In this document: positions 1-60,610 of the stretch, one piece after another
Layout of the letters: each line of letters begins with the position of its first letter
Numbering within the stretch: the first letter of the stretch is position 1
Assembly: GCA_043228905.1 (NCBI GenBank)
Contig: JBHGNT010000015.1
Span: 5,270,001 to 5,334,000, forward strand
Direction of reading: 5' to 3'
Source of the DNA: Azolla caroliniana
Lineage: Eukaryota; Plantae; Polypodiophyta
Length of the DNA: 64,000 nucleotides
Made by a program: the position numbers and the translations under genes
The notes under the pieces: model-generated
Database searches by the model: none
Told to the model about the DNA's origin: nothing
The model's input: only the letters and a program-made list of their open reading frames with translations

Positions 1-404
1 TATAATTTTTCTAGGACATGCATCCCAAACAAAAGATTGCCATGCTTGTGCATTGATGCTTAGTAAGGTGAAATAACAACTTGCAACTAATAGACAATAG
101 ATTAATAAAAGAATGCATGCGCACCCATATAACTAATTTGTGGTTGGTAACATAAATTAACTCCCAATCTTTTGTTTTAAAGTCCATAAACCCCAAATGT
201 GTTGGTTATGGACAAGGTTTTGCCTAAAGCACATTGTTATTCACAAGTCTCCTCTTTGGATAGAGCAATTCTAAACCACACCAAAGTAAACTATCACAAA
301 AAAATCAACTTGGTTTCACACTAGCGTCCAACTATATTTAATAGTAAGGGTGGGCTACCACATTGGCTAATGAGGATGCTCAAAGAGGTTCGTATGCTTG
401 TAAT

Positions 405-3399: not shown

Positions 3400-3854
3400 T
3401 ATTATAGATCTTGGTACTAACGTAAGCTTAAGATAAGGATAATGAAAAGATAGATAGAAAGGAGAAAGAGAAAGAAGGGTACCGATCCACCCGACCACCC
3501 CCGAGCGAAGGGATCGAGACGGACTCGAGCCTCGATCGGCGTCCCATACCACCGCCGTGGCGTCGAGTCGTACCTGGTGCTGGCGCACTCGCTACAAGAG
3601 TTGACCCACCACACGAGCAGAGTCTCGATGTAGTCAAAAGATGATCAAATGAGGGTAGCTAGGCCTCTTATTTATAGCGAAACCCAAGGCCCCCAGGCAA
3701 GTTCACACTTGACCTAATGGGTTGTCTCAATCCCGAGGATTAAAAGTAATCCTCCCCTTCTTTACACTCTCATTTAACCCTCACACTTATCCACGTGTAT
3801 AGAATACTACGGTAAATTCTTACCACGGGATATTATATGGTCATGCTCGTAACA
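3400..3854 (-). repeat. 3' LTR of Gypsy A
   Basis: Direct repeat of 9963-10417; termini TGTTAC...TATAATA on the element strand. Confidence 0.95.
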
Positions 3855-37363: not shown

Positions 37364-38062
37364 TGTCGCGTTGTTACGCGCGCTTGCGTGTAGAACGAGG
37401 CGGGACCACCGGGGCCTTGGACCAAGAAATAGCTGAGAAGGAGGGGAACGTAAACGCAACAGACGCACTTGCACGCACACGGACGCGGGGCACACAGGAA
37501 TCACAGTGCATCAACACAGCAAAACGAGACGACTAGAAGTCTGGGTATATGAACACCTATGTATATTAATTTGTATGTGTATATCAAGACGGTTACAACT
37601 AACAGGCTGGCAAGGCGAACGCCGACACCTGTTTACTCACACGTAGAAGAGTGAGATGGAGACTCTACCAGAAGCACACGGGCGTTCCACGAAGCAGAGT
37701 CAGCCTCCCGAAAACTTGCGCCTAGCGAATATAAAGAAAGAAGGAGGAGAAGAGCTCGGTCCCAGTCCGACAACACTTCGTCCTCCACAAAAAAAAAACC
37801 GATCCCCCCTTTCATTCCTCTCCCTCTCTTTTATAGCCCAAGGAGGGAGGCTGTTATCATTCGTTATATCATATTAATTCTCTGTCCTTTCGGACAGAGA
37901 TACACCTCGATTCTCTCCCTATTGAATGCGTGCTACCTAGGATTTCACCTCAGCCGACTTGTACCTACCTACTTACTATACAACGAAAGTGTGCTCACAT
38001 GTAAGGGCCGGTTTACACACGCTAAATTCGGTTTCCGCCTAGGGACGGTTTTCTTCACGACA
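37364..38062 (-). repeat. 3' LTR of Gypsy C
   Basis: Repeat of 53384-54081; TGTCG...CGACA. Confidence 0.93.
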
Positions 38063-38921
38063 TCCGCCCCCACCTAACCGCGCATCCACCGGTATGCGCC
38101 AAAATTGGGCTCTTGCCGGAGAAAACCGGTCCACGCTTTACTCCTCGCCTTTCGGATCGTCATCCGCCTCGGACCGTCCGTCGTCGCCGTCCATGATTTC
38201 CAGATCCGGCTCACACTCGTGTCGTTTCTTAAATGCTTTGACCCTCTTCCCCGCTACTGGTATTGCCATCCTCGTACCGTCGAACTCCGTACGATGGTAG
38301 GTCCCGTTGTCGTTGGCGCCTGTCACCGCGTAAGGCCCGAACAACCTCCTTGCAAACTTTCGCTGTCGTGCCTTTCGGCTCCGGATCGTTTCGTGAGTCG
38401 GGTGGAAACCGCTGGGGTTTTGGACTAGGAAGAGGAGAGTTTTAAGGCTAATAAGAATATAAATATGTTGTAAGAAAGAGTTATAGCAAACTCGTGAATC
38501 CCACGAGTGTATTGTATTTGATTAATCAATATGAATATAAGAATATAAATTTGGGTTGAAAGAGAATGATATAGAATCCTCGTGAATCCCACGAGTATAG
38601 TTTATTAATTGGTGTTTTTTAGAAACATATCCAGTTTCCAAGTATTTCACACACAATTACATTGTGCTCCCCATCCTTATGTAGTGATGAGGAAGTCTTA
38701 GTAATCCATGCTTTTTCTCTAACTATAGACCCCATGCTTTTCCTATAGATAGACTATATGCTTTATCTAAAGTGATCATGCTTTTTTCTAACTTGTGCGA
38801 TTTTTATCATGCACGCTAGATGTGTATGTGTAGCTTTTTCTTTTGTTATGCGTTTTTCTAATGTTTATCCTAGCGTGAATTTACCTTTCTATGTGGGACA
38901 TCTATGCTTTAACACTAATGA

Positions 38922-39010
38922 AATGCTAGTGTAATGGTAAGACATTACATTATTAACATGGAGGTGCAAGGTTCGAATCTTGCCCTATGCATGTTCCATT
39001 TATTTTGCTA
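38922..39010 (+). ncRNA. tRNA-like Pol III cassette (A box, B box, T-run) in the element D 3' LTR
   Basis: A box TAGTGTAATGG 38927-38937; B box GGTTCGAATC 38970-38979 in hairpin GCAAG..CTTGC; TTTT runs downstream. Confidence 0.55.
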
Positions 39011-39090
39011 TTTTCTTCTATTTCTTCATTTTTTATTGAATCTAATACTATATACGTTTTTCACGTAGTGTACAAAATACACTACGACAC

Positions 39091-41112
39091 TCACCCCCTC
39101 CAAACCCGCACATCCTCCGGTATGTGCCGAAGTTGTTGGTGTTTGTTAGTCTCCTCCGTCCGGTCTCTACCCGATTGGTTTCGTTGCCGGCTCGTAGTAC
39201 CCTCGACTTCTCTTGTTATGTTGACTTTGTCTCTCCATTTGGAGCACATCCATTCTTTCCACCCGAACCATTGTCGACATCCGATCCACCATAGTCTTCG
39301 TTCGCTTTTTGCATGGCCCGCTTGGTCCTTGTCATCCGCGGTAGTATCTTTTCTTGCCCTCTTTCTTTTCTTCATCAATCTCGACTTCTTTTCGGATTTT
39401 CGGCTTAGTCGGATTAGCTTACTTCCGATTCGGTCTCGTCGGATCGTCTTTCGTTTAGTTCGGCTTCCTTTCCGATTTGTATTCGGTCGATCCGGACTCG
39501 GTCGATCGGTTTTTACCGATTCAGTGCTCTTTCGGGTCGGTTTCTTTTCTTTTCTTTTCGTCCGGATTTGCTTTCTTTTCTTCGTTTTCACCTGCCTTGT
39601 CCGGTTCGACTTTCGGCACTTCTTTCCGTTGTTCGCCACGTAGGTCCTCCGATATGTGCTCGTTGTTCGGTCCTCGTGTGGTTGTAATGCATGCTTCTTT
39701 TCTCGCCGTAGCGCGTGCTTCTTTATTCGCCATAACACGCGTTTCTTTATTCGCCGTAGAGCGTGCTCTGTATTACGCGCTTCTCCCGTCGTAGACCCGA
39801 CCTCCGCATTGTCGCACTTTCTTTTAGATTGGAATTTCGGATGGATCATTTTCCATCCGAACCGACTTCCGACTTTACCTTCCTCGCCGCCATCTCCCGT
39901 CTCTCCAGTCTCACGTTGGTTCTCGGACACAACCGCCGAAGTCTCTAGATATTGTTGGCATGAATCCTCGGTATTACCTTCTTTCGTAGTTTCACCCTTA
40001 GCATTCTTCTCGGCTATCTCTTCATCGTATTCGTCGGCTTCGACATTCGTTTTCTCTCCGCCACCTTCCGTCTCTTCGGTCTCACGTTGCCTTTCGATCG
40101 CAACCGCCGGAGTCTCTGGAATCAGTGGTGGGGAAGTCTCGATATGGCAATCCGCCATTGATTCGTCCATAGCCACCTCCGATTCGATTTCGTCTTTTAT
40201 GGCTACCTCCTTAATCACATCCGCTTCACACTCTTTATCTGCATCAATTATGCAAACATCTATTATGCTTACCCCTTTTTGACCCGATGTCTCGGGCACT
40301 TGTATCCCGAAATTTCCTTCTACACTTGAATTATCGGCCTTATCCTTCGCCATCGTTCTTTCACAAGACGAGTGGGTGTCTTGTTCCACTCTTTCTCCCG
40401 TGGTACCATCATGTTGTATTTCGGCCTTCATATTGGCTTCATCGTTTTTCCTCAATCGACCATCCTTCATGGGCCATGTCGTTGTTGACGAGATTCTCAG
40501 CTTCCTTTCATCATGTCTTCGGCATACCCTTTCGACTTTAGCCCAATCCTCGGTAAGACCATTCGCACCGTCATCGTCTTCGAGTTCAATCCCGATGTCC
40601 TTCCTTTCTTTCCGATCAATCGATCTTACGAACATTAGGACTTTATCCTCTCCCACCAATCGTTGTTCCCGCTCCGAGAGTCGAGCAAAACGATGCTCGA
40701 ACTCTAGGAATGCTTGTGTTGCACTTCGGTGGGTCTTCTCCGATGCCACCCATTCATCGAACTCTCGCCGATCTCGTCCCTTCGGTCTATCGTAATCATA
40801 TGCCTCTCGTAAAGCTTCTTCGAATGACCCCCATGTCGAGTTTTGTTGCCGTATCTTGTGGATTCTCTCTTGTAGCTCATCCGTGGCCACCCGATTGAAG
40901 GATGTCACTTGCAATCCTTCCGGTATCCCACATCGTATCATCTCCGCCTTGTAGTCACGTAGATAGCATGACACATCATTTCCGTTGAATTGTCCGTTTC
41001 GTTGTACGAGCCGCTTTACTACCGCCGTGATCTCCGACATCGCTTGTTGTTCTTGTAGCATCCGTTCGAACATCATCATCATCATGTTCATCGCCTCTTG
41101 TTGATTCTCCAT
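39091..41112 (-). CDS. Gag-like protein with long acidic then basic C-terminal extension (~673 aa from first ATG)
   Basis: Uninterrupted ORF; N-terminus aligns by eye with Gypsy C gag (F.G.D...YL..Y.AEM...IPE; VL.FV..D; DGLT.DWA.V.RVC). Confidence 0.85.
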   Translation of the reverse strand: MENQQEAMNMMMMMFERMLQEQQAMSEITAVVKRLVQRNGQFNGNDVSCYLRDYKAEMIRCGIPEGLQVTSFNRVATDELQERIHKIRQQNSTWGSFEEALREAYDYDRPKGRDRREFDEWVASEKTHRSATQAFLEFEHRFARLSEREQRLVGEDKVLMFVRSIDRKERKDIGIELEDDDGANGLTEDWAKVERVCRRHDERKLRISSTTTWPMKDGRLRKNDEANMKAEIQHDGTTGERVEQDTHSSCERTMAKDKADNSSVEGNFGIQVPETSGQKGVSIIDVCIIDADKECEADVIKEVAIKDEIESEVAMDESMADCHIETSPPLIPETPAVAIERQRETEETEGGGEKTNVEADEYDEEIAEKNAKGETTKEGNTEDSCQQYLETSAVVSENQRETGETGDGGEEGKVGSRFGWKMIHPKFQSKRKCDNAEVGSTTGEARNTEHALRRIKKRVLWRIKKHALRREKKHALQPHEDRTTSTYRRTYVANNGKKCRKSNRTRQVKTKKRKQIRTKRKEKKPTRKSTESVKTDRPSPDRPNTNRKGSRTKRKTIRRDRIGSKLIRLSRKSEKKSRLMKKRKRARKDTTADDKDQAGHAKSERRLWWIGCRQWFGWKEWMCSKWRDKVNITREVEGTTSRQRNQSGRDRTEETNKHQQLRHIPEDVRVWRG

Positions 41113-41128
41113 CTCCTTGCCACCCGCC

Positions 41129-41146
41129 TTCACGTCGGGTTCACCA
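41129..41146 (-). promoter_or_regulatory. PBS complementary to tRNA-Trp
   Basis: Plus strand reads TTCACGTCGGGTTCACCA, matching from memory the 3' 18 nt of plant cytosolic tRNA-Trp. Confidence 0.85.
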
Positions 41147-41708
41147 ACTGTGTCGTGCCTTTCGGCTCCGGATCGTTTCGTGAGTCGGGTGGAAACCGCT
41201 GGGGTTTTGGACTAGGAAGAGGAGAGTTTTAAGGCTAATAAGAATATAAATATGTTGTAAGAAAGAGTTATAGCAAACTCGTGAATCCCACGAGTGTATT
41301 GTATTTGATTAATCAATATGAATATAAGAATATAAATTTGGGTTGAAAGAGAATGATATAGAATCCTCGTGAATCCCACGAGTATAGTTTATTAATTGGT
41401 GTTTTTTAGAAACATATCCAGTTTCCAAGTATTTCACACACAATTACATTGTGCTCCCCATCCTTATGTAGTGATGAGGAAGTCTTAGTAATCCATGCTT
41501 TTTCTCTAACTATAGACCCCATGCTTTTCCTATAGATAGACTATATGCTTTATCTAAAGTGATCATGCTTTTTTCTAACTTGTGCGATTTTTATCATGCA
41601 CGCTAGATGTGTATGTGTAGCTTTTTCTTTTGTTATGCGTTTTTCTAATGTTTATCCTAGCGTGAATTTACCTTTCTATGTGGGACATCTATGCTTTAAC
41701 ACTAATGA

Positions 41709-41797
41709 AATGCTAGTGTAATGGTAAGACATTACATTATTAACATGGAGGTGCAAGGTTCGAATCTTGCCCTATGCATGTTCCATTTATTTTGCTA
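41709..41797 (+). ncRNA. Second copy of the tRNA-like Pol III cassette (element D 5' LTR)
   Basis: Same sequence as 38922-39010. Confidence 0.55.
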
Positions 41798-41880
41798 TTT
41801 TCTTCTATTTCTTCATTTTTTATTGAATCTAATACTATATACGTTTTTCACGTAGTGTACAAAATACACTACGACATCGC

Positions 41881-44763
41881 GTTGCCCTGTGTTGGTTGTC
41901 GAGGCTGCTGTCATACACTAGGACCCAGTCGCCTTCCTCGATTTTCTTCGGTCGCAGTCAGTGAGTCCGGTCAAATCTCCCTTTGTTCTTGAACCTTGCC
42001 AACCGAAGCTTCTCCGCGGGTCTTTCCACGTCCTCCGGTCTCCGCTCGAGTTGTCGAATCCGTGCCGCCAGCAGCTCCTCTCGGCTCATCTCATCTCTCC
42101 AGTCCATCGTGGCCCATGAGGAGATCGTTCGCTCCGTCGGCATGATCAGCTTTTGTCTGTACATATGCTCTGCCGGCATGAACCCGGTTAACGAACTGTG
42201 CGTAGTTCGGTCCGCCCATAAGGCATAAGGTAGCAGTCGTGACCAGTTCCCGACTTGGCCCCAGCACGCCCGTACTAGCGCTTTGACTATTGGCCCATGT
42301 CCGCGCTCCACCTTCACATTAGCCTCCGGATTGTACGCTGTGGTGAGCGAGAGTTTGACCCCTAGCCGGTCAAACAACTCTTCGGCCTCTTGCGCGTCCA
42401 ACTCTCCGCGGTCAGCCACGATCTTCCCTACGCTCCCGTACCGACATATCACGTCCTCGAATAGGAACCAGCACACATCCGCGGTCGTTTTGTTCTGCAG
42501 TGCTCGGCCTTAAACCTGGTTCGTCAGATCCTCCCGAGCCAGCACCAGATACCGCATCTGTCCTACCCCCATCGGCATTGTCACCAAATCCACCATCCAT
42601 TTGAAGTGGGTGGTCGGCGGGTAAGTTGGGTGGAGCTCGTCCCAGTGTCGGACTATGGAGTGCATTTGACAGCTTTCGCAAGTTTTCATGAACCGATGCA
42701 CGTCCCGGTACAGTCCCGGCCACCAATACTTTCCCTTTAGCTTCTCAAACGTGGCCCATGTCCCACGGTGTTTGGCCCAGGGACTCTCGTGGTATGCCGA
42801 CAATAACTCTTCTTGCTCCTCTTTCTTTGCCACCACTCGAAGCGGGACGCCGTCCCTTTTCTTCGGGTGCTTCCATATGTACCCGTCTCGTAGGAAGAAT
42901 CGATACGCTTTCTTCCGGATCCTGTTGGTCTCTTCCTTCGTCCACACCGCGTCCGGTATCATTGTTCTTAGGAACTCGCCGATCTGGAGCCACTCCCCGT
43001 CATAATTGCTCTCGTCGAAGTCGTTAAGCGCCGGAGTGCTTCCCTTTCCGGTTGTTACATAAGCCGCCTCGAAGAAGTCTACGTCGACTTCCTCGTCCTC
43101 TTAAACCATGTCGTCCTTGTTTTCAAACCTTGCTCTTGAGAGCATGTCGGCCATGGCGTTGTCTTTTCCAGAAATGTGTCGTATCTCCGGATTCAGGGAC
43201 TTGATGTATGCTATCCACCTGAGCATCGCCAGGTCCGGTGTCGCGCATCCGGAAACCATGCCGTCTCGATTATTACCTTTGTCCTGATCAGGTAGTCTTT
43301 ATCGGCCTTCACCGCCGAAACGATACCCCAGAGTTCGCGTTTAACCTGGGCGTATCCTTGTTGTCGCTCACTGAGGACCTTCGCGCCGAACTGGATGGGG
43401 AACCTCGTGCCAACGTCATCCTCTTGGTTAATCACCCATCCGATCCTGGTCAGGCTCGTATCTACGGTTACGTAAATCGGAGTGTCTCTACCGTAGACAA
43501 CCTTTCAGAGCGTCGGTGCCGTGGAAAGTGCTTCCTTCATCTTTCGGACTAATTCCATATGCTCGTCTCCCCATTCGAATTTACGCCCTTTCTTCAGCAA
43601 CCCATACAGTGGTTGCGCGATGTGGGCGTAATGCAGGATCTAGATATGCTAGAACGCGCATGCTCCCAAGAACCTCCGAACCTCCGTAACCGAATTGCAA
43701 TCATGCTTCATCGCGGAGATGGCTTCCACCTTGGCCGGAGACGGTTTCCTACTGTACGGCCCGCATAGGTGTCCGACAACCATGATCTTTGATTGCCTGA
43801 AGGCCGATTTTTCCCCGGAGAAGGTGAGCCTCGCGCCTTCTAGTCTCTGCAACACCTTCTCGCAATCATCGATGTGAGTCGCCACGAAATTCCGGCATCC
43901 ATCCGGTCCGATTGTCTTGTCCCTTTCCTCCAACAGGCATCCCCTGATCGAGATGTCGTCTAAGAATGGCATGGTGATGTTCACCATGTGAGCCACCGAG
44001 TTCGTCCCTCCTTGCGGTAGGGTACACATCCGCACTAGGCCGAGAGGAGTCCGCATCGTCGTAATGTCCCTGCTCTCCATGGCTAGTTGAAACTGATCGT
44101 ACCCTGAGTACAGATCACCGATAGAGTAAATCGACCTTCCGACGAAGGCCTCCGCGAACTCGTCTATGGTCGGTCCGATTCCTGTATTCCGAATGGTCAC
44201 CTTGTTGATCGGCTGCAGGTCTTGAATAAAGCGCAGCATGCCGTTCTTCTTTGGCACCGTAAACCACCGATTCGAATACGGGGCACTCGACGGTTCGAGG
44301 ATGCCCATCTCCACCTTTTGCTGCAGGAGCTCCATCAACTTTGGGATGTGAGCTCTCGGCACCGGTTTCGGCTTGAGATTCCACGGTACATGCGGTACCG
44401 TGAAGATCACCATCGGTTCGACAATTGTCGGGTCTACGCACCCGATCTCCTCTAGTGAGAATGTGAAAGCCTTCCTGTGCCTCCCGAGCATTCTCCGAAA
44501 CCGGTCCTCCTCCGGCAGTAGAAATCCGCCCCCACCGACCTTGAGCTCCCGTAGCGTTATGTCGGTGAATCGGTGCCCTATGCCAGCCGGGTTCCGTAAA
44601 CTTGGGTCCGACGCGACCCCTTTTATCCGCTCTTTGCTGCCCTCCGGCAAGGGTGCCGCGACTGACCTCACCTTCCGGTCCACAGTCTTGTACTTTGTAT
44701 CCACGCGGGCCATTCGACCCGATCCAATCCTTTCCCCGAAGTCCGCGATGACTTCGTATATTC
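41881..44763 (-). pseudogene. Gypsy C pol (RT-RH-IN), degenerate
   Basis: LRFIQDLQPIN, DLYSGYDQF, LPQGGTNS, FLDD; integrase ADRGE, YNPEAN.KVERGH; tail at 38138-38363. Confidence 0.88.
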
Positions 44764-44817
44764 TGTTGGGAGATAGGTCCCTCCGGATGGGAAGGGAGAT
44801 AGGCCGAGGCCGAAACC

Positions 44818-45028
44818 GTATGAGGAGTACCCGGCTATGGAGAGCCGGATGATGCAGACCCGGTGAGAACCGGATGAGTACCCGGCTACAGAGAGCCGGA
44901 TGGTGCAGACCCGGTGAGAACCGGATGAGGAGTACCCGGCTTCGGAGAGCCGGATGGTGCAGACCCGGCGAGGACCGGATGAGGAGTACCCGGCTACGGA
45001 GAGCCGGATGGTGCAGACCCGGTGAGGA
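44818..45028 (+). repeat. 54-bp tandem repeat in Copia E U3 (4 units here, 5 in LTR2, 3 in LTR3)
   Basis: Unit CGGATGAGGAGTACCCGGCTACGGAGAGCCGGATGGTGCAGACCCGGYGAGRAC. Confidence 0.9.
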
Positions 45029-45527
45029 ATGCTCACCGGATGAAGAGACATATTCGTAAATATGTTTCTGAGAGTCCATCGAGGCTATATTTGTAAATAG
45101 CCGAAAAGTCATATTAGTATAAATATGACTTAGGGCAAACTTTTAATTACTGTTGTTGTTGTTATTCTTGTTGGTGCAAGAATAGAGTGAGCGCGTAACA
45201 GTGTACACAGAGAGAGAGAGAGAGCAAGAGGTCGTTGCCTCTGTTGTAACCGCCGCCTGTGGCGAGGATCGTGAGCACGAGGTCGTTGCCTCCGTGAACT
45301 CACTGTTGTACATACTCACATAGTGATAGTTTGCAGCCTGTGGGTTGCCGTGGTTTTTCCCTCTTTGGGTTTTCCACGTAAACATCCCGTGTACTGTTCT
45401 CCTCTTTGTGTCGTGCTTTCATTTCCGGTTTTCTGTGCATGAATCTAAGCTTGGTTGCGGCCGAGCATTGCGTACAGGGGAGCGTACTGTTCTTGACAAG
45501 TGGTATCAGAGAGAAACGACACAGAAA

Positions 45528-48500
45528 ATGGACGAATCGTTTGGCGGCATGTTCAAACTCACCGGCTCCAACTATTCAGTGTGGAAGTCGAAGATGAGGG
45601 ACATGCTCATGGTTAAAGACCTCTGGTTGCCGGTTCAAATCGGGGACAAGAGACCGGACAAAATCAACGTCGCGATATGGGAGGTGATGCACATGAAGAC
45701 AACGACGTACATACGTTGCTTCATCGACATGAGCCTGTACAACAACTTCAATGAAGAGAGCAAGGCTCATGAGCTCTGGGAGAAGATCGGCATAATGTTT
45801 CAGAACAAAAATGTTGTTAATCAGGTTTCGGTATTCCGGAAGTTAGTAAGACTCCGGTACCAAGATGGCTCCAGCATGGCGAAGCACATGAATGCCTTCC
45901 AGGGGCTGATCCACCAGGCAACTTCATTGGAAGTACCTCTCGCCGATGAGGTACTAGCGCTACTCCTGCTCGGTTCCCTCCCGGATAGCTGGGAGACGTT
46001 GGTTGTCACTTTGGGCAACGCCGGGCCGGAAGGAAAACGGTTATCCCTAGCAAGAGTGAAGTCGAGCTTGCTAGATGAGAAGGCGCGTCGGAAAGATAAG
46101 GATACGAACTCTGACTCCAAAGCGCTCCTTACCGAATCGGAACGCGGAAGACATAGAAACCGTAGTCCCCAGAACCGGGAGAAGTCGGGGACACGGTCAA
46201 AGTCAAGGGGGAGGCCTACTTGCTTCTATTGCGGCAAGCCGGGACACTTCCAGAAGAACTGTCGGCACTTCCGTAAAGACAAGGAAACCGACGGCACCGA
46301 TTCAAAGCGGACACCGGACCGGAACGGTAAAGACCGCAGCGGACCGGACCGGAAGGGAATGACAGCAATCGCGGCAAGTGAAGAGGAGTTGATGCTCATC
46401 ATCGAGGAGAGTGAGATAAACCTTGCCGGCAACGAGATGACCTGGGTGGTAGACTCCGGAGCGTCATTCCACCTTACCCCGGACCGGAAATGCTTCTCAT
46501 CCTACTCAGCCGGTGATCACGGCTGTGTCCGGATGGGGAATGAAGGTACATGCCGAATTGTCGGCATAGGAGATGTGTGGTTGTCGACACCAACCGGATG
46601 CAAGTTGCTGCTGCGGGATGTCCGACACGTTCCGGAGGTTCGACTCAACCTGATATCAGCCGGTCGGCTAGATGATGAGGGCTACACGGGTAGCATCCGG
46701 AACGGTGTCATGAAGTTCAGCAAAGGGAGCCTGATTGTGGCTCGGGCCCGGAAGGTAAACACATTGTACCTGATGAATGCCCGGTTATGCCCGGAAGAAG
46801 TGAACGTGGCATCCAACACTACCGGTGAGCTATGGCACAAGAGGCTGTGTCATATGAGCGAGAAGGGGATGAAGAGGCTTGCAGACGACAACCTCATTCC
46901 AGTGAAGAACGTGCACTTAGAGAAGTGCACTGATTGTCTGGCCGGTAAGCAGAACCGGACCTCCTTCCGACCAAGGTCACCGATGACACGTAATGCACCA
47001 CTGGAGTTGGTGCATACGGATGTGTGTCAAGTAGACACGAAGTGACATGCCGGAGCGCAGTACTTCGTGACGTTCATAGATGACCACAGCCGGAATCTGT
47101 GGGCCACACCGTTGAAGACGAAGGATCAGGTGTTATCTGTCTTCAAAGAGCTCCACGCGAGAGTGGAAAGAGAAACCGGCCGGAAGTTGAAGGTGGTTCG
47201 AGCAGATAACGGAGGAGAATACCGGGGGTAGTTCGGGGAATACTGCCGCTCGAAGGGAATCCGGCTCGAATTTACCGTGCCGAAGACGCCGGAACTAAAC
47301 GGACTGGCCGAGAGGATGAACTGGACGATAATGGAGAGGGTCCGGAGTATGCTAGCGCATGCAAAACTACCCAAGAAGTTTTGGGTTGAGGCACTGTCAA
47401 CGGCCACATATGTGATAAATAGATCACCCTCAGTACCCTTGGACGGAGACACGCCACAGAGAGTGTGGACCGGTAAGGAAGTATCCTACCGGCATCTGAA
47501 GGTGTTCGGGTGTCTCGCGTACGTGCATGTAGCTAAGGACCGGAGAGGAAAGTTAGATCCAAAGACCCGGCCATGCATATTCCTCGGTTACAGTGACGAC
47601 GAGTTGGTCGACAAGAAGGTATTCCGGAGTCGAGATATTATCTTCATGGAGAACAAGACGCTCGCCGACTCAGAGTCGGAGAAGAAGATAATGAACTCCG
47701 AGTCGACCGGTAAGGATCGACTCTACGATGAGCAGACCCAACCGCCAAGAGACCGGTTAGCACTCGAGGGACCAGACGGTTACGGTGAGGATACCGAACG
47801 GGCTGAAGAAGAAGTAGAGGAAGCTAAAACCGGAACCGGCCAAGACCCCGAATCGGATTCGGATGAAGAGCAGATGGATGAGCCGGTCACCGAAGCCCAG
47901 AGACGGAGATATCCTCTCAGAGAGAGAAGGGCCCCCCGGAGATTTCCGGATGCAGAGCATGTTCTGCTGACTGATGAGGGGGAGCCGGAAAGCTTCGAAG
48001 AGGCGAAGGAAGACACCCACAGCCGAAAATGGTTAAGTGCCATGCAGGATGAGATGGATTCCCTGCATGAGAACCATACGTATGAATTGGTGGAGTTGCC
48101 GAAACGAAAGCGGGCACTCCGAAACAAGTGGGTGTACAAGTTGAAACCGGGAGCTGTCGGCAACCCCCCGAGAAACAAAGCCAGGATCGTGGTGAAGGGG
48201 TTCCAGCAGAAGAAGGGCGTGGACTTCGACGAGATATTTTCCCCGGTAGTAAAGATGACCTCCATCCGGACAGTGCTGAGTATAGCGGCAAGCATGGACC
48301 TCGAGGTAGAGCAGCTAGACGTGAAAACGGCATTCCTTCACGGTGATCTCGTAGAAGAGATCTACATGCAGCAAACGGAAGGATTCGTGGAGAAAGGGAA
48401 GGAGCACCTGGTTTGCCGGTTGAAGAAGAGGCTCTACGGGTTAAAGCAGGCCCCCCGGCAATGGTACCGGAAGTTCGACTCCTTCATGACCGATCAAGGG

Positions 48501-49553
48501 TACCACAAGACGCAAGCCGATCACTGCGTGTTTGTGAAGAAGTTTGAAGGAGGTGACTTCCTGATACTCCTTCTGTACGTGGACGACATGTTGATCGTCG
48601 GACGGGACCAAGTCAAAATACGGATGCTGAAGAAGGCTCTCAACCGGACCTTCTCAATGAAAGACTTGGGTCCGGCAAGACAGATGATGGGGATGCACAT
48701 CATTCGGGACCGGTCAGCGAAGCAATTATGGCTATCACAGGAGAAGTACGTGACAAAGGTGCTTCACCGGTTCAACATGTCAGATGCGAAACCGGTCGGA
48801 TCGACACTTCCGGCAAACTGCAAGCTATCCGGTAAGCAAAGCCAGAAGACGAAAGCAGAGAAGGCGGATATGATGAAGATTCCATATGCCTCTGCCGTCG
48901 GGAGCTTGATGTACGCAATGGTTTGTACCCGACCGGACATAGGATACGCAGTCGGAGTGGTGAGCCTGTTTATGAGCAATCCCGGCAAGGAGCACTGGAA
49001 CACAGTCAAATGGATACTCCGGTATTTGAAGGGCACTTCAAATATGTGTCTCCGATTCGGCTCCGAAAAACCTCAACTTGACGGTTTCACCGATTCGGAC
49101 ATGTCGGCTGATGTGGATACCAGCCGGTCTACATCCGGGTATGTAATGACATATGTAGGGGGAGCTGTTTCGTGGCAGTCGAGGCTGCAGAAGACGGTTG
49201 GATTGTCAACCACAGAGGCGGAGTACATGGCAGCTGTGGAAGCCGGCAAGGAAATATTATGGATGAAGGACTTCATCAGAGAGCTCAGTATCCGGCAAGA
49301 TGAATATCGACTTTATTGTGACAGTCAAAGTGCAATCCATCTTGCTAAGAATGCGGCCTACCATTCCTGGACGAAGCATATCCAGCGAAGATATCACTGG
49401 ATCCGGGAAAGAGTAGATGACCAGGAGTTCGCACTGACGAAGATCCACACGGCCGAGAACGGGTCAGATATGCTGACCAAAGTGCTAATACCCGACAAGC
49501 TAGATGCATGCCGAAAGAGGATCGGACTAGTAAGACACCCCATGCCGGAGTGA
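45528..49553 (+). pseudogene. Copia E gag-pol, one frame with two premature stops (~47043, ~47229)
   Basis: CFYCGKPGHFQKNC, WVVDSGASFH, LWHKRLCH, QLDVKTAFLHG, YVDDML, TKHIQRRYHWIR. Confidence 0.93.
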
Positions 49554-49973
49554 AGGGGGAGTTTGTTGGGAGACAGGTCCCTTCGGATGGGAAGGGACAT
49601 AGGCTGAGGCCAAAACCGTATGAGGAGTACCCGGCTACGAAGAGCCGGATGATGCAGACCCAGTGAGAACCGGATGAGGAGTACCCGGCTACAGAGAGCC
49701 GGATGATGCAGACCCGGTGAGAACCAGATGAGGATTACCCGGCTTCGGAGAGCCGGATGGTGCAAACCTGGCGAGGACCGGATGAGGAGTACCCGGCTAC
49801 GGAGAGCCGGATGGTGGAGACCCGGCGAGGACCGGATGAGGAGTACCCGGCTACAGAGAGCCGGATGGTGCAGACCCGGTGAGGAATGCTCACCGGATGA
49901 AGAGACATATTCGTAAATATGTTTCTGAGAGTCCATCGAGACTATATTTGTAAATAGCCGAAAAGTCATATTA

Positions 49974-50266
49974 CCTGTGCCTCCCGAGCATTCTCCGAAA
50001 CCGGTCCTCCTCCTCCGGCAGTAGAAATCCGCCCCCACCGACCTTGAGCTCCCGTAGCGTTATGTCGGTGAACCGGTGCCCTATGCCAGCCGGGTTCCGT
50101 AAACTTGGGTCCGACGCGACCCCTTTTATCTGCTCCTTGCTGCCCTCCGGCAAGGGTGTCGCGACTGACCTCACCTTCCGGTCCACAGTCTTGTACTTTG
50201 TATCCATGCGGGCCGTCCGACCCGACCCAATCCTTTCCCCGAAGTCCGCGATGAGTTCGTATATTC
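49974..50266 (-). repeat. Diverged duplicate of the Gypsy C segment 44474-44763
   Basis: Aligns by eye with several substitutions and a 3-bp indel. Confidence 0.9.
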
Positions 50267-50956
50267 TGTTGGGAGATAGGTCCCTCTGGATGGGAAGGGA
50301 GATAGGCCGAGGCCGAAACCGTATGAGGAGTACCCGGCTACGGAGAGCCGGATGATGCAGACCCGGTGAGAACCGGATGAGGAGTACCCGGCTTCGGAGA
50401 GCCGGATGGTGCAGACCCGGCGAGGACCGGATGAGGAGTACCCGGCTACGGAAGAGCCGGATGGTGCAGACCCGGTGAGGAATGCTCACCGGATGAAGAG
50501 ACATATTCGTAAATATGTTTTTGAGAGTCCATCGAGGCTATATTTGTAAATAGCCGAAAAGTCATATTAGTATAAATATGACTTAGGGCAAACTTTTAAT
50601 TACTGTTGTTGTTGTTATTCTTGTTGGTGCAAGAATAGAGTGAGCGCTTAACAGTGTACACAGAGAGAGAGAGAGAGCAAGAGGTCGTTGCCTCTGTTGT
50701 AACCGCCGCCTGTGGTGAGGATCGTGAGCACGAGGTCATTGCCTCCGTGAACTCACTGTTGTACATACTAACATAGTGATAGTTTGCAACCTGTGGGCTT
50801 CCGTGGTTTTTCCCTCTTTGGGTTTTCCACGTAAACATCCCGTGTACTCTTCTCCTCTTTGTGTCGTGCTTTCATTTCCGGTTTTCTATGCATGAATCTA
50901 AGCTTGGTTGCGGCCAAGCATTGCGTATAGGGGAGCGTACAGTTCTCGACATATTC

Positions 50957-53360
50957 CCATCAAACTAACCGGCACGGTCTGGTGTTCTCTAAGGTCTTCA
51001 TTGATCACCTTTCGTAACTCGCCCAAGGTGTCGTCAAAAGAGACCGCCTCCACGGCGCCGTTGATTTCTTCGTCGGGGGAGAGGACTCCGCATCCCCTGA
51101 GCCGCTACTCCGCCCTCTTCCTTTCCTGGCCGCTTACACCAGTTATAGTACAACCCCCACTGTCGGAGAACCAAAATTTCCTCCCTATGGTACAGGTCTT
51201 CTTCCCTACTGTACACTTGTGGGGTTTTTCCGGGGTGTCCGGACTATCGCGGCCCCACACGTTGATAGCTGTCTCTAAAAATCCCCTCAGGTTTCGCCTC
51301 CGAGGGTCTCGCGGTTACGCTCATGGTTCGGTCGCACCGTCAGGAACTGGACCGAGTGACGCCCGTCCTGGCTCTTGACTCTTGCATAGGCCGAACCGTT
51401 GTCCTGCACCTTGGTCTCCATCCGTGCCGCCGTGATGTATGGTTCTCCTAGTATAACCAGATGTGAGGACGTCCCTTGCACGAAGAAGTGTTGGTCGATC
51501 TTGATATCACCAATTTTCACCCGTACATTTGTGCAGGCTCCATGTAGTTCTTCCGTGGCGCGCGTTGTTGCCCGTATTTTCCAGCCATGTTTGGTGTTGA
51601 TCGGCCATTTTCCCCCTTTGTAGAAGTCCATGGACATCAAGTTGATTTCTGAACCGTGGTCCACCAACGCCACCACCGGCTCCTGGACATCCCCGATCTT
51701 AATAGGGGTCTCTGTGGTCGCTCTGGCCCAGTGCGGCCTCGAATAGTGGCTCTCCGCCAACTCGTCTTCTAGCGCCATGTCCTCTATGTGCGTCGTTCGC
51801 ACTTCCACCGGCTTCTCCAGGTCTAGCCCTGTCGACAGCCTCTTCCTCTTCACCAAGTCTACGATGGAGTCGTGGAACTCCTTCTTGGCGATCCCAAGCA
51901 CCTACCTCAGCGACAGCTCCACTTTGCTGTCGAGGATAGGTTCCTCCAGGACCTTTCGCAGATCCGTGGTCCTTTCGATTTCCATGCTCAACCGGTACCC
52001 GGCCTTCTTGGCTTTATCTGGTGCGCCGGTCGCACGGGCCTCATTCTACCGTTGACCAAATCGGGTCTCGTACCGTTGCGAGGGCCCAGCACCTTTGGTT
52101 TTACCTACTCGCTTGTCTTCCACCAGAGCCTCGTAGTTCTGGCATGCAGCTTCAACGAAGCCCGTCTTCTCTTCGACCGGGTCACTCCACCCGGTTAGCT
52201 CCCGGACCCGTTTTTCCACGCGGTCCACTTCTTCTTTCCTTAACCGTGCGCCGGCAAGGCCTTCCAGCATCAGCGGCCAGAATCCGGCTTCGTCCGTCTT
52301 CCGGGCCTCACCACCTCCGACCCGGATCCCTGCCGACGCCGAGTAGTGGACGGTCTCCGCGTGGCAAGCCGCCGCTTCTTCCATCAGCCGTTTCATACCC
52401 CCTCGTCCGACATTCAGGTTCAGGGCCCTTCGGGTCTTGCTAGCGTGCACCCGACCGTTCCATAGGTACACCACGTTGGCTCTCATTGCCTCGGCGAAGT
52501 CCCCGCAGTCCCTCCGGACGTGGCCGACCGCGTCGCACCACAAACACTAGTTTCCAGCTAGAGGCCTTCGATCACGGGCCTGTTCGCTGCCGTCCCTCCG
52601 TGCTTGTGCAATTTGGAGGTCCTTTACCATCCCAGTCAGCTCCTCTAGAGCTGCTCCTCCGCTCGAGCCTCTGACCATGCCGGTCGAAGTCGATCTGGTC
52701 TCGAGCCAGTCTCGGGTCACTTCCTTTATCGACCCACTCTCGCCGTTTGTCAAAACGGCCACAAACTCTCTTCACTACGGCCCAGTCGGCCGTCAGCCCG
52801 TCATCAGTCTCCAGCAGGAGACCCACCTGCTCTCGGTTCCTCGCATCCACCAACTTAACGAACAACAGGACGCGGCTCGTGTCTAGTACGGTCCGGTCGA
52901 GTGCCGAAAGACGCGCGAAGCGTTCTTCAAACTCCCGGAGGAGCACTGACGCGTTTCTCCCCTTTTCGGGGGTCTCTACCCATTCCATGAAATCCCGTTT
53001 CGAGAGCCGAAGCGCGTCATCAAGCCCGTCTTTTTCGAGGAGCCGACCTTCAAACTCTTCCCAGGTCCGGCTCTCAGCCCGTACCTCGAGCACCTTCGCA
53101 TGGATGCCCGATATTGCCACTCGCGGGAAACCGGTCAGTCGCCTCTCTTCCGGAATGTCTCTCATTACCATCTCGGCCCAGTAGGCCTCCAAATAGCTCG
53201 TAGCGTCCTTCCCACCGAACCGGCCTATCGTGCTGACAACCGCTTCAATGGCCCTATCGAGGGTGTCTGCACCTTCGCGCGCACTCACTATCCGATCCAC
53301 AGCCGAAGCCATGGCTTCTGCGAGATCCGACCCCTTCATCTTTCTATTCCTCTGCCGCAT
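50957..53360 (-). pseudogene. Gypsy C gag-protease and start of pol, degenerate
   Basis: C.WCD..GH.RRDC knuckle, ALVDHGSEINLM protease. Confidence 0.87.
51218..51284 (-). promoter_or_regulatory. Putative -1 ribosomal frameshift signal (Gypsy C)
   Basis: GGATTTT-TAG, then stems GCTATC/GATAGT and TGTGGGG/CCCCACA. Confidence 0.7.
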
Positions 53361-53383
53361 GTTCACGCCGGGTTCACCAAATA

Positions 53384-54081
53384 TGTCGCGTTGTTACGTG
53401 CGCGTGCGTGTAGAAAGAGGCGGGACCACCGGGGCCTTGGACCGAGAAATAGCTGAGAAGGAGGGGAACGGGAAGGCAACAGACGCACTTGCACGCACAC
53501 GGACGCGGGGCACACAGGAATCACAGTGCATCAACACAGCAAAACGAGACGACTAGAAGTCTGAGTATATGAACACGTATGTATATTAATTTGTATGTGT
53601 ATATCAAGACGGTTACAACTAACAGGCCGGCAAGGCGAACGTCGACGCCTGTTCACTCACACGTAGAAGAGCGAGATGGAGACTCTGCCGGAAGCACACG
53701 GGCAACCCACGAAGCAGAGTCAGCCTCCCGAAAACCTGCACCCAGCGAATATAGAGAAAGAAGGAGGAGAAGAGCTCGGTCCCAGTCTGACAGCACTTCG
53801 TCCTCCACAAAAAAAAACCGATCCCCCCTTTCATTCCTCTCCCTCTCTTTTATTGCCCAAGGAGGGAGGCCGTTATCATTTGTTACATCATATTAATTCT
53901 TTGTCCTTTCGGACAGAGATACACCTCGATTCTCTCCCTATTGAATGCGTGCTACCGAGGATTTCACCTCAGCCGACTTGTACCTACCTACTTACTATAC
54001 AACGAAAGTGTGCTCACGTGTAAGGGGCGGTTTACACACGCTAAATTCGGTTTCCGCCTAGGGACGGTTTTCTTCACGACA
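53384..54081 (-). repeat. 5' LTR of Gypsy C
   Basis: Repeat of 37364-38062; adjacent to the Trp PBS. Confidence 0.93.
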
Positions 54082-55317
54082 ACGGGAGCTGGAGACGCTT
54101 TCCGAAGCCGTAAAGGATCCGCAATGGATCGATGCAATGAATGAGGAAATGGAACGTTATGCAAAAACGAGACATGGGTTCTCTTCCCTCACACTCCGCA
54201 CAAGAAAGCGATTGGTTGTCGATGGATTTACAAAGTGAAACACAATGCCGACACCTCCATAAATCGCTTTAAAGCACGGCTTGTTGCGAAAGGATACACG
54301 CAAACGCACGACGTAGACTACGAAGAGACTTTTGCCCCGGTGGCAAAGATGACAATTGTGCGGACCGTAATTGCAATTGCGGCAGCAAAAGGGTGGTACC
54401 TCCACCAGATGGACGTCAAGAACGCCATTCTTCAAGGATAATTGGAAGAGGAGGTGTACATGATCCAACCACCCGGTTTTGAATCGCGCAATCATCCAAA
54501 CACCGTGTGCTGACCCAAGAAGCCTCTCTACAGCCTCAAAGAAGCACCACGTTGTCGAGGTATTCCTCGCGGATGCGTGGAATGAGGCGGGACCTCGGGG
54601 GTCCTGTACCGAAGAGCAAGAGAGAAAGGAGAAGAGACCCACTACGTGCGAGAGTAGATTCATAGGGACACGGCCCTTCGACACAAAGAAGCGAGTGGGA
54701 CAGTGACACAGAGAGACACGAATGTATGTATGTATTAACAAAGACAAACAACAAAACACGAAGTCGGTTACAACCGAACAGGCCGGCGAACAGATGCCGA
54801 TACCTGTTCGTAAACGCACAGAGATGAAGGAGTAGGTTGGAGGTGCTGCCGGAAGCACTCGGGCATTCCTCAGAGCAGCGCGAGCCTCCCGAAACCTGCA
54901 CAGAAGGAAGCTATGGAGTTTGTGAACCAGAGAGAGAGAAGCCTTCGCACCCAAACCGACAGCACTTCGTCCTCGACTCTCCGCGATCCCTTTCTCCTCC
55001 TTGTCTCCCTCCTTTTATAGGCAAGGAAGGAGCCGTTTCCCATTTACTTCCTACCTACCGAATCTGCCCGCCTAGGATCTCCTATGTACAACATAAGGCG
55101 CACGTGCATGAAGAGCCGGTTCCTACGCTCTGGTGCACCGATTCCGCTTGTGGACGGTTTTCTTCACGACATCCACCCCCACCTAACCGTGCATCCACCA
55201 GCATGCGCCAAATCGAGTTGGGACGGAGAAAACCGGTCCAGCCTTTATTCCCCACTCATCGGTTCTTCTTCGGTTTTGGATCGTCCGTCGTCCCGGTCCA
55301 GGTTATCCGGATCCGGC

Positions 55318-58300: not shown

Positions 58301-60413
58301 ACATCTCTTCGGAACATACCGGTATCGTCCGGTCTTCATTAAGGTCTTCTCCGGCTACCTTCCTTAGCATTCCCAAGGTGTCGTCGAAGGAGACCGCCTC
58401 CACGGCTCCGCTGATTTCCTCGTCCGGCCGAGAACTCCGCACACTCGAAGTCGCACTTCCGCCCTTGTCTTTTCTCGGCCGACGATGCCGACTATCATAC
58501 ACCCTCCATTGTTGGAGAAGCAAAATTTCCTACCTATCGTACAGTCGTGGGGTCTTTTCCGAGTGTCCGGGCTGTCTCGGCCCCACGCCTTGGCAGCCCT
58601 CTCTAAAAATCCTCCCGGCTCTCGCCACCGAGGGATTCGCGGTTTCTCTCGTGGTTCGGCCGCACTGTCAGAAATTGCACCGAATGGCGCCCGTCCTGGC
58701 TTTTGACCCTCGCGTAGGCCGAACCGTTGTCCAGCACCTTGGTCTCCATTCTCGCCGCCGTGATGTATGGTTCCCCTAATATGACCGGATGCGAGGACGT
58801 CTCCTGTATGAAGAAGTGCTGGTCAATCTCGACGTCGCCGATCTTGACTCGCACGTTCGGGCAGGCCCCGTGCAGTTCCTCGGTGGCGCGCGTCACCGCC
58901 CGTATCTTCCACCCGTGCTTGGTGTTGATCGGCCACTTTCCCTTCTTATAGAAGTCCATGGACATCAGGTTTATTTCCGAACCGTGGTCCACCAATGCCA
59001 CCGGTTCCTGAACATCTCCGATCTTTACCGGGGTCTCCGTGGTCGCTCGGGCCCAGTGCGGCCTTGAATAGTGGCTCTCCGCCCACTCATCTTTCAGCGC
59101 CATGTCGTCGATGTGCGTCGTCCGCACGTCCACCAGTCTTTTTGGTTCTGTCTCCATCGACAGCCTCTTTCGTTTCACCAGGTCCGCAATGGAGTCGTGG
59201 AACTCCTTTGCGATCCCTAGCACCTCTCGCAATGACAGCTCCACTTTGTTGTCGAGGATCCGTTCTTCTAGGACCTTTCGTAGGTCCGTAGTCCTTTCTA
59301 TTTCCGTCCCCAGTCGGTATCCGCCCTTCCTGGGGTTATCTTGCGCGCTGGACCCACCGGCATCGTTCCGTCGTTGCCCGAATCGGGTCTCGTACCGTTG
59401 TGAGGGCCCGGCCACTCCGGCTTTCCCCACTCGTTTGTCTTCTACCAGAACCTCGTAGTTCCGGCAGGCGGCTTCTACGAAGCCCGTCTTCTCCTCGACC
59501 GGATCGCTCCACCTGGTTATTTCCCGGACTCGTCTCTCAGCGCGGTCCGTTTCATCTTTCCTTAGTCGTGCGCCGGCAAGACCTTCCAGCATTGCCGACC
59601 AGAATCCGTCTTTGCCCTCTGTTCGGGCCTCGCTGCCCCCGACCCGAATTCCGGCCGACGCCGAGTAGTGGATGGCCTCTACGTGTCGGGCCGCTGCCTC
59701 TTCCATCAGTCTCTTCATACCTCCTCGCCCGTCATTTCGGTTCAGGGCCCTCCTGGTGTCGCCGGCGTTCACCCGGCCTTCCCATAGGTACACCACCCGG
59801 TTCCTCAACGCCTCTGCGAAATCGTCGCAGTCCTTCCGAATGTGGCAGACCTCGTCGCACCACATGCACCTGTTCCCCGCTGCCGGCCGTCGGTCACGAG
59901 CCGGTTCGCCGCCTTCCCTTCGAGTCTGGGCGATCTGGAGATCCTTTATCGCCCGCGTCAACTCCTCCAACGCTGCTCCTCCGGACGAGCCATTGACCAT
60001 GCCGGTCGAAGCCTGACCGGTTTCGAGCCATTCCCGGGTTTCTTCCCTTCGCACTTGCGGTGCCGGTTCAAGCCTCCTTGCCGTGACAGAGCCCGCACCG
60101 GCTGCCCCGTTGTCAGCCCATTCTCGCTGTTTATCGAAACGGCCACAGACTCTCTTAACCGCTGCCCAGTCGGTTGTCAACCCGTCCTCGGTTTCCAGCA
60201 AGGAGCCGACTTGGTCCCGGTCCTGCTCATCCACCGACTTGACGAACAGTAGGACCCGGCTCGTATCCAGAACGGTTCGGTCAAGCGTCGAAAGGTGCGC
60301 AAAGCGTTCTTCGAACTCCCGGAGGAGTGTCGTCGCGTTTCTTCCCTTGCTGAGGGCCTCCACCCATTCCATGAAGTCTCGTTTCGAAAGCCGGAGCGCG
60401 TCGTCCAGCCCGA
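55318..60413 (-). pseudogene. Gypsy F gag-PR and pol, degenerate
   Basis: CMWCDEVCHIRKDC, ALVDHGSE, PFLDDIP, integrase core ORF 55318-56790. Confidence 0.9.
58546..58612 (-). promoter_or_regulatory. Putative -1 ribosomal frameshift signal (Gypsy F)
   Basis: GGATTTT-TAG, then stems GGGCTG/CAGCCC and CGTGGGG/CCCCACG. Confidence 0.7.
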
Positions 60414-60610
60414 ACAAATATTTTTATATTTATTATAGAAATACATAATTTTAGTGTGAAGTCCCATTTTTAATGTCAGATAAAAATATCCATAAATTTT
60501 GGGAAATGCAAAAGTGAGGAATTAATGAACCTTTATTTTATTTTATTCATTTATTAAAAATAAAACAAATATTTTTACATTTACTATAAAAATTTATTAG
60601 TGTCAAGTCC
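60414..60610. mobile_element. hAT-type MITE, internal/3' part (probably the rest of copy 2)
   Basis: Aligns to ~655-890 of copy 1 in the same orientation; right TIR not seen. Confidence 0.8.

What the first reader, a model, noticed from the sequence alone, without database searches (positions are those of the whole stretch)
58546..58612. -1 frameshift site with a covarying pseudoknot, placed after the protease
Seen in both F (here) and C (51218-51284): the gag-protease frame closes at G GAT TTT TAG (C has an extra upstream stop, probably a later mutation). It is followed by stem 1 (GGGCTG/CAGCCC in F, GCTATC/GATAGT in C) and stem 2 (CGTGGGG/CCCCACG in F, TGTGGGG/CCCCACA in C), with compensatory changes in both. 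The -1 frame keeps WGRDSPDT..PH.CT..IGRKF.FS..GGC, and in C it runs (one stop) into PDEEINGAVEAV of pol; F needs a 1-bp indel. Known: GGAUUUU is a functional slippery heptamer in dianthoviruses, and Gag-PR/Pol partition is alpharetrovirus-like. Most plant Gypsy elements use one ORF.
Basis: partly seen in the sequence, partly recalled or inferred. Interest (0 to 1): 0.78.

Follow-up and report, generated by a model that had tools for sequence, protein, structure and literature searches.

The report
Ribosome-slip switch in plant jumping genes
A lineage of jumping genes from mosses, liverworts and ferns keeps a virus-style signal, a slippery stretch followed by a knotted RNA fold, that likely makes ribosomes step back one base to produce the copying enzymes, and one young branch keeps the same knot one base closer, where it would drive a rare two-base slip.

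Summary
Confirmed and extended. The site is the gag-protease/pol junction of a Ty3/gypsy element with the marks of the Phygy lineage (4-bp NCGN target duplication, tRNA-Trp primer site). Pol lies in the -1 frame in 27 of 30 and 24 of 30 genomic relatives of copies F and C, and in 59 of 62 callable metagenome loci; one broken copy is in frame. Across 30 diverged families a G_G(A/G/U)U_UUY heptamer ends the protease frame. Six bases on, stem 1 covaries beyond a tree-aware null, and stem 2 is supported more moderately. No start codon opens pol. Programmed -1 frameshifting is the best reading (0.88) but was not measured. New here: a young sister clade has G_GUU_UUU (the arterivirus -2 site), a 5-base spacer, the same pseudoknot and an intact, conserved pol in the -2/+1 frame. 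This looks like a natural switch from -1 to -2 frameshifting (0.6). Neither signal was found in the papers I could search.

The parts
58603..60423 (-). Copy F gag-protease ORF (5' end missing), ending ...REDF-stop; contains DUF4100
58975..58992 (-). Protease active-site motif VDHGSE (retropepsin fold; D-H-G rather than D-T/S-G)
58606..58612 (-). Slippery heptamer G_GAU_UUU, copy F
58600..58605 (-). Six-base spacer beginning with the gag-protease stop UAG
58592..58599 (-). Stem 1, 5' strand (+13 to +20)
58588..58591 (-). Weaker upper extension of stem 1, 5' side (+21 to +24); partner 58577-58580
58581..58587 (-). Stem 2, 5' strand (loop of stem 1)
58569..58576 (-). Stem 1, 3' strand (+36 to +43)
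58546..58552 (-). Stem 2, 3' strand, after a 16-base loop
55321..58612 (-). Copy F pol (linker, RT, RNase H, integrase), opening in the -1 frame; broken in this copy near 58425, 57420 and 56860
54553..55183 (-). Copy F polypurine tract (55172-55183) and 3' LTR (54553-55171), followed by ACGT
51218..51284 (-). Copy C heptamer, stop and pseudoknot (decayed at +13, +14, +25)
53363..54081 (-). Copy C 5' LTR (53384-54081) and tRNA-Trp primer-binding site (53363-53379)
37364..38062 (-). Copy C 3' LTR, 95% identical to its 5' LTR; target duplication CCGT/CCGT; the element is interrupted by nested insertions

Best explanation
This is likely a programmed -1 ribosomal frameshift signal of a Phygy-type Ty3/gypsy retrotransposon: the gag-protease frame ends at G_GAU_UUU-stop, pol opens in the -1 frame without a start codon, and a conserved two-stem RNA fold six bases downstream is predicted to stall ribosomes so that a minority slip back one base and make Gag-protease-Pol. 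Shown: the frames, the heptamer, the spacer, covariation of stem 1 and, less strongly, stem 2. Inferred: that the fold forms as an H-type pseudoknot (8-12 bp stem 1, 5-8 bp stem 2, 11-16 nt last loop), that Asp and Phe tRNAs slip in tandem, and that the result is an excess of Gag-protease over RT, RNase H and integrase.
For: Frames: pol is -1 in 27 of 30 F-family and 24 of 30 C-family loci (best-scoring hits, not a random sample), in 25 of 30 loci from a further genome search and in 59 of 62 callable metagenome loci. Protein ends: 69 of 120 listed homologues end in DF, GF or NF and 29 more end five residues after DF or GF. Heptamer: all 65 metagenome loci whose protease frame ran to its usual end carry GG[A/G/T]TTT[T/C]; in 8 others the frame broke earlier. 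Of 30 non-redundant families, 23 have GGATTTT, while in the same ORFs G precedes 27% of Asp codons, 64% of Asp codons are GAT and 46% of Phe codons are TTT. Pol frame: open for 119-156 codons from the heptamer to the conserved KYK motif in 28 of 30 families, with 4-25 stops in each other frame; no ATG between the last upstream stop and the site in 28 of 28. Stem 1: 95.7% of cells paired, 6 of 8 pairs with double changes; best of 1188 registers; 9 shared changes on the tree against 2.9 +/- 1.5, 0 of 1000 simulations reached it. Stem 2: own-tail score 500 against 413 +/- 14, 0 of 20000 permutations; sister-pair swaps 7 better, 1 worse, 7 tied, p 0.035, control register 3:6:6. G_GA as XXX and 5-9 nt spacers are known for -1 sites (PMC5009743, passages).
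Against: No frameshift assay, ribosome profile or peptide. The region also codes in the pol frame, so part of its conservation is protein-level. Stem 1's covariation rests on few events (2-3 changes in the best columns; 3 of 8 pairs share none). Stem 2 is mostly GGGG/CCCC, its register was chosen per sequence, and its tree-aware test is marginal (p 0.035). The upper part of stem 1 is paired in only 57% of cells. Single-sequence folds of F and C are not unusually stable, and no pseudoknot-folding program was available. Public gene models in Physcomitrium and Riccia join the frames by skipping this region.
Confidence: 0.88

Rival explanations
1. Splicing removes the stop and joins gag-protease to pol, as in Ogre elements.
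For: Ogre has an intron between GAG-PROT and RT (PMC6317226, passage). Of 12 long fused homologues, all are eukaryotic gene models; the 4 whose junction my script located skip the site, as do several Physcomitrium models.
Against: The stretch that would be intronic is stop-free in the pol frame in 28 of 30 families. In most of six pairs it changes most at third codon positions. The models skip different lengths. The only conserved upstream GT dinucleotides are Val codons with varying context. Splicing would not explain the heptamer or the fixed spacer.
Confidence: 0.04
2. Frameshifting happens at the heptamer, but the stimulator is only the stem-1 hairpin; stem 2 is a by-product of G- and C-rich codons or serves packaging.
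For: Stem 2's tree-aware support is marginal; plant-virus G_GAU_UUU sites use bulged stem-loops with distant partners (PMC5009743, passage).
Against: Stem 2 keeps pairing when the loop departs from GGGG (GCGAGA/TCTCGC, GCAGGGA/TCCTTGC, ATGAGGGT/ACCCTCAT, CAAGG/CCTTG) and in different codon registers.
Confidence: 0.1
3. Pol is made separately, by reinitiation, internal initiation or a subgenomic RNA.
For: Bianca and Ogre keep two separated ORFs. In the -2/+1 sister clade both families have a pol-frame ATG 6-15 bases upstream of the site.
Against: No such ATG in 28 of 28 -1 families, and the first downstream Met is not conserved (codon 3 to 111). In the sister clade's frame the same ATG occurs by chance in 8 of 28 -1 families, from Asp/Asn-Asp codons, and no UGGGA motif lies within 100 bases upstream in the two sister families.
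Confidence: 0.04
4. The frame difference is decay of a single-ORF element, or polymerase slippage on the U run.
For: Both window copies are broken.
Against: The same offset and heptamer occur in 30 families and in copies with long intact ORFs; the run is only 4-5 U.
Confidence: 0.02

Closest known systems
Phygy lineage of non-chromovirus Ty3/gypsy elements (Neumann et al. 2019, PMC6317226; passages and supplement 5 read)
   Same: 4-bp NCGN target duplication, tRNA-Trp primer site, short element filled by the polyprotein, homologues in Physcomitrium patens.
   Different: [quoted passage not shown] Homologues here reach Riccia, Adiantum and Calypogeia. The F family is about 7.0 kb, below the listed 7.7-10.0 kb.
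-1 frameshift sites of dianthoviruses and umbraviruses (PEMV-2 G_GAU_UUU; PMC5009743, passages)
   Same: Same heptamer, nearby stop, plant ribosomes.
   Different: Those use a bulged stem-loop pairing with a partner about 4 kb away; here a compact local pseudoknot is predicted.
Rous sarcoma virus gag-pol frameshift (PMC5009743, passages; protease at the end of Gag and the tRNA-Trp primer are recalled, from no call)
   Same: -1 shift after Gag-protease, pseudoknot stimulator.
   Different: This is a gypsy retrotransposon without env; the heptamer and fold differ. Analogy, not kinship.
Arterivirus nsp2TF -2/-1 frameshift (PMC4937337 and PMC6675879, passages)
   Same: The sister clade has G_GUU_UUU, full A-site re-pairing in both shifted frames and an early stop in the -1 frame.
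   Different: Arteriviruses need a C-rich motif 9-10 bases away plus nsp1-beta and PCBP, and make an accessory protein; here an RNA pseudoknot 5 bases away would gate the essential polymerase.
Ogre and Retand GAG-PROT / RT-RH-INT partition; Tcn1 and Selgy overlapping GAG / PROT frames (PMC6317226, supplement 5)
   Same: Plant gypsy lineages with two ORFs exist, some split after the protease.
   Different: Ogre and Retand are split by an intron, a spacer or an in-frame stop; Tcn1 and Selgy overlap before the protease, and that table gives neither frame nor signal.

Membership tests
Phygy (Ty3/gypsy, non-chromovirus) | 4-bp target duplication NCGN | tested here: met
   18 of 20 fetched copies had both ends; the 5' flank is NCGN in 18 of 18, identical on both sides in 13, one base off in 4, unresolved in 1. 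Copy C: CCGT/CCGT.
Phygy (Ty3/gypsy, non-chromovirus) | Primer-binding site for tRNA-Trp | tested here: met
   Site present in 18 of 20 copies; complementary to host genes called tRNA-Trp(CCA) in 6 of 6 loci scanned.
Phygy (Ty3/gypsy, non-chromovirus) | Order PR-RT-RH-INT with no chromodomain | tested here: met
   RT, RNase H and integrase in that order in copy F, no Chromo hit. An archaeal RNase H domain was not looked for separately.
Phygy (Ty3/gypsy, non-chromovirus) | Length 7.7-10.0 kb | tested here: inconclusive
   Sister family 7.9-8.0 kb (8 of 8); F family mostly 6.7-7.2 kb.
Phygy (Ty3/gypsy, non-chromovirus) | Clusters with reference Phygy RT-RH-INT sequences | not testable with these tools
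   The reference FASTA and element table were too large to read. Homologues are named in P. patens.
Canonical -1 programmed frameshift signal | X_XXY_YYZ heptamer in the zero frame | tested here: met
   G_GAU_UUU/C in 25, G_GGU_UUU in 2, G_GUU_UUC in 1 of 28 -1 families; G_GA and G_GU are accepted XXX variants.
Canonical -1 programmed frameshift signal | 3' RNA structure 5-9 bases downstream | tested here: met
   Stem 1 starts 6 bases after the heptamer in an ungapped alignment of 32 rows and covaries; stem 2 is supported more weakly.
Canonical -1 programmed frameshift signal | Downstream ORF in the -1 frame without its own start | tested here: met
Canonical -1 programmed frameshift signal | Measured frameshifting that depends on site and structure | not testable with these tools
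   Needs a reporter assay, ribosome profiling or mass spectrometry.
Arterivirus-type -2 frameshift (sister clade only) | G_GUU_UUU site with the downstream ORF in the -2 frame | tested here: met
   28 of 30 genomic loci carry the site; RT motifs are in the -2/+1 frame in 16 of 19.
Arterivirus-type -2 frameshift (sister clade only) | C-rich motif 9-10 bases downstream bound by viral and host proteins | tested here: not met
   A pseudoknot begins 5 bases after the site instead. It may work like the arterivirus signal but is not one.
Alpharetrovirus | Retroviral pol and an env gene | tested here: not met
   Pol runs to within about 140 bases of the polypurine tract and 3' LTR, leaving no room for env; the nearest solved protease by sequence is Ty3's.

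The most novel reading that the evidence does not exclude
One retrotransposon lineage of seedless plants uses a pseudoknot-driven -1 frameshift between Gag-protease and Pol, and a recently active branch has switched to -2 frameshifting by changing the site from G_GAU_UUU to G_GUU_UUU and moving the same pseudoknot one base closer. This would be a natural, RNA-structure-driven -2 frameshift that gates an essential polymerase, and a natural test of the mRNA-tension model of shift direction.
Probability: 0.6. Interest if true: 0.86.

Novelty: new variant of a known kind. Interest (0 to 1): 0.74.

Why it matters
A 2016 review states that the plant LTR elements then known with separate gag and pol frames were all +1 (PMC5009743, passage citing a 2003 survey), and a 2017 paper says many plant retroelements are single-ORF and do not recode (PMC5580714, passage). 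A conserved -1 signal with a compact pseudoknot fills the 'not determined' entry for Phygy and gives a short host-genome cassette for studying frameshifting on plant ribosomes. It also explains why gene predictors invent introns here. The sister clade offers matched natural -1 and -2 versions of one fold, differing by the heptamer and one spacer base. That is the change Lin et al. 2012 (PMC3458567, abstract) found to favour -2 shifts in engineered RNAs.

Tried and rejected
No RNA holder listed; laying contigs of four small-share runs on F gave nothing usable on expression or splicing, and the RNA-guess runs did not cover the sister junction. Viral-contig scans found no relative. Rfam: no match up to E 10 over 361 bases. 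A third stem in the last loop, tempting in F and C, is not conserved: 3 of 31 loops fold at all, weakly. The first tree had the window row out of frame and was rebuilt. A pattern count of the sister site found nothing because its upstream half was a guess. A fungal range could not be shown: a distant homologue resembles Basidiomycota protease clusters in the Atlas, but its sequence search gave only 2 unnamed hits, and no fungal DNA was seen. Literature: ten searches listed no paper describing this signal. Gao et al. 2003 was not held, so I know it only through two citing passages. Neumann's element table and FASTA were unreadable and may bear on novelty and on Phygy membership. Earlier scan notes held nothing on this lineage.

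Full report
What is there. The finding lies on the - strand at the junction of two ORFs of an LTR retrotransposon. Copy F has a 606-codon frame (60423-58603, 5' end lost) with DUF4100, then RT, RNase H and integrase. The last domain of the first ORF is a retropepsin: 20 of 25 relatives hit Asp_protease_2 at E up to 1, though the window's own row did not. The profile's only PDB hit is Ty3 Gag-Pol (E 0.034), and the model (pLDDT 63) matches Ddi1 and retroviral proteases. The frame ends G GAT TTT TAG. Copy C shows the same at 51284. Both window copies are broken.

Lineage. Of 20 fetched genomic copies, 18 had both LTR ends; all 18 have an NCGN flank and 13 a perfect 4-bp duplication. Eighteen of 20 carry a primer site complementary to host tRNA-Trp. 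These are the marks listed for Phygy, whose ORF organisation the same table gives as not determined (PMC6317226, supplement 5). Named homologues come from Physcomitrium patens, Riccia sorocarpa, Adiantum nelumboides and Calypogeia fissa. That the host here is a seedless plant is my inference. Placement by tree with reference sequences was not possible.

Frames. Pol is in the -1 frame in 27 of 30 loci nearest to F and 24 of 30 nearest to C; 8 are +1 and 1, with a deletion in the fold, is in frame. A metagenome scan kept the best 80 of 176 loci. Seven lacked a usable protease tail and 11 lacked pol; of the other 62, 59 are -1, 3 are +1/-2 and none is in frame. Of 120 listed protein homologues (of 240 found), 69 end in DF, GF or NF and 29 end five residues after DF or GF. 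A search for longer, fused forms gave 12 proteins, all eukaryotic gene models; the four whose junction I located skip the site.

Slippery site. All 65 metagenome loci whose protease frame ran to its usual end carry GG[A/G/T]TTT[T/C] there; 8 broke earlier and were not scored. After dropping two short contigs and near-duplicates, 30 families remained: GGATTTT 23, GGATTTC 2, GGGTTTT 2, GGTTTTC 1, GGTTTTT 2. Background codon use in the same ORFs would give G-GAT-TTT only about 8% of the time at an Asp-Phe pair (0.27 x 0.64 x 0.46); the families are related, so this is not a p-value. The pol frame has a stop 1-38 codons upstream of the site and is open for 119-156 codons downstream to the conserved KYK motif in 28 of 30 families. 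None of the 28 -1 families has an ATG in the upstream stretch.

The fold. The first 46 bases align without gaps. Stem 1 (+13..20 with +36..43) is the best of 1188 eight-pair registers. It is 95.7% paired with double changes in 6 of 8 pairs, including G-C to U-A transversions; slid controls give 25-45%. On a protease tree that excludes the site, its columns share 9 changes against 2.9 +/- 1.5 in 1000 simulations (maximum 7), and the two top APC-corrected column pairs of 630 are stem-1 pairs. The events are few, and three pairs share none. An upper extension (+21..24 with +32..35) is 57% paired with covariation; where it forms, the shape approaches a long stem 1, a 1-2 base first loop and a 6-bp stem 2. 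Stem 2 pairs the loop with a tract 11-16 bases past stem 1. Each family's own tail fits better than permuted tails (500 against 413 +/- 14), and sister swaps go 7:1 with 7 ties (p 0.035; control 3:6:6).

Mechanism. Shown: frames, heptamer, spacer, pairing. Inferred: the fold stalls the ribosome with GAU and UUU in the P and A sites, both tRNAs slip back one base, and a minority of ribosomes make Gag-protease-Pol while the rest stop at the next codon. G_GA is an accepted imperfect XXX in dianthoviruses and umbraviruses, and spacers of 5-9 bases are typical (PMC5009743, passages). Splicing, separate initiation and decay fit worse. Nothing here measures frameshifting.

The sister clade. Two metagenome families (L114, L119; 77% identical), sisters on the tree with 100/99 support, end the protease frame CAG GTT TTT (G/T)AC TAG. 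They keep both stems (stem 2 of 8 bp) but 5 bases from the heptamer, and pol is open for over 800 codons only in the -2/+1 frame; the -1 frame stops within 2-7 codons. The family is abundant in this genome. Loci picked by a pol stretch 1.5 kb downstream show the site in 28 of 30, with one variant and one interrupted. RT motifs are in the -2/+1 frame in 16 of 19; the other 3 have later indels. Eight full-length copies have LTRs 99.5-100% identical and a pol frame open for 1154 codons. A contig from another run spans the site without gaps. Pol of L114 and L119 is 82% identical in protein, with 39% third-position and 8% second-position differences, so it is under selection and must be expressed. 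G_GUU_UUU is the arterivirus -2/-1 site, with full A-site and limited P-site re-pairing (PMC6675879, passages). Shorter spacers favour -2 in wheat germ (PMC4937337, passage) and with pseudoknots (PMC3458567, abstract). One -1 family, L132, already has G_GUU_UUC with a 6-base spacer. Against: both sister families have a pol-frame ATG just upstream, although such ATGs arise by chance in 8 of 28 other families; a +1 shift re-pairs well in L119 (UUU_U) but poorly in the commoner UUU_G form; and only one origin is documented. I put -2 frameshifting at 0.6.

Novelty. The mechanism is textbook; its occurrence after the protease in a plant gypsy lineage, and the -2 branch, were not in the papers listed by ten searches. 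The library lacks most subscription papers, Gao et al. 2003 was not held, and Repbase-type reports were not searchable. Tcn1 and Selgy already have overlapping ORFs before the protease, so two-frame gypsy elements in seedless plants are not unprecedented. Papers seen: PMC5009743, PMC5580714, PMC4937337, PMC6675879, PMC7466625 and PMC6911290 as passages; PMC6317226 as passages plus supplement 5; PMC3458567 as abstract. Verdict: real, a new variant of a known kind, interest 0.74.

Noticed in passing
G000, e.g. loci L141-L190 and L233-L240; metagenome loci L114, L119: Young, high-copy sister family with G_GUU_UUU, a 5-base spacer, the same pseudoknot and pol in the -2/+1 frame; candidate natural -2 frameshift.
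   Followed up: yes
window 38364-41876, - strand: A 3.5-kb element nested in copy C, with identical 726-bp LTRs, GCGA/GCGA duplication and the same tRNA-Trp primer site. Its single 706-codon frame has a gag N-terminus related to this lineage (35% over 194 aa) and a long acidic then basic tail, with no Pfam hit and no pol: likely a recent non-autonomous, gag-only partner.
   Followed up: partly
window 58975-58992 and alignment A2: The protease motif is D-H-G in nearly all families (24 of 25 rows), not the usual D-T/S-G (the usual form is recalled).
   Followed up: no
window 44474-50951: Copy C is interrupted by a Copia element (45330-49553, + strand) flanked by short tandem repeats, and about 1 kb around the insertion is duplicated at 92%.
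   Followed up: no
G000:C8:17796786-17823371 and G000:C16:4989495-5105657: Dense arrays of matches to the tRNA-Trp 3' end (62 genome-wide; about 1.2-kb spacing on C8); six other matches were confirmed as tRNA-Trp genes. This is the primer of this retrotransposon lineage.
   Followed up: partly
protein P0286 (Calypogeia fissa): A distant gag-protease homologue ends in KVFY, like the sister clade's QVFD/QVFY; possibly an independent -2 origin, DNA not seen.
   Followed up: partly
proteins P0170-P0181, P0043, P0059, P0097, P0117: Public gene models in Riccia and Physcomitrium bridge the frameshift with predicted introns of varying length, likely annotation artefacts.
   Followed up: partly
window 3841-8280, - strand: A chromodomain-bearing gypsy element with gag, protease, RT, RNase H and integrase in one frame, broken by in-frame stops.
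   Followed up: no
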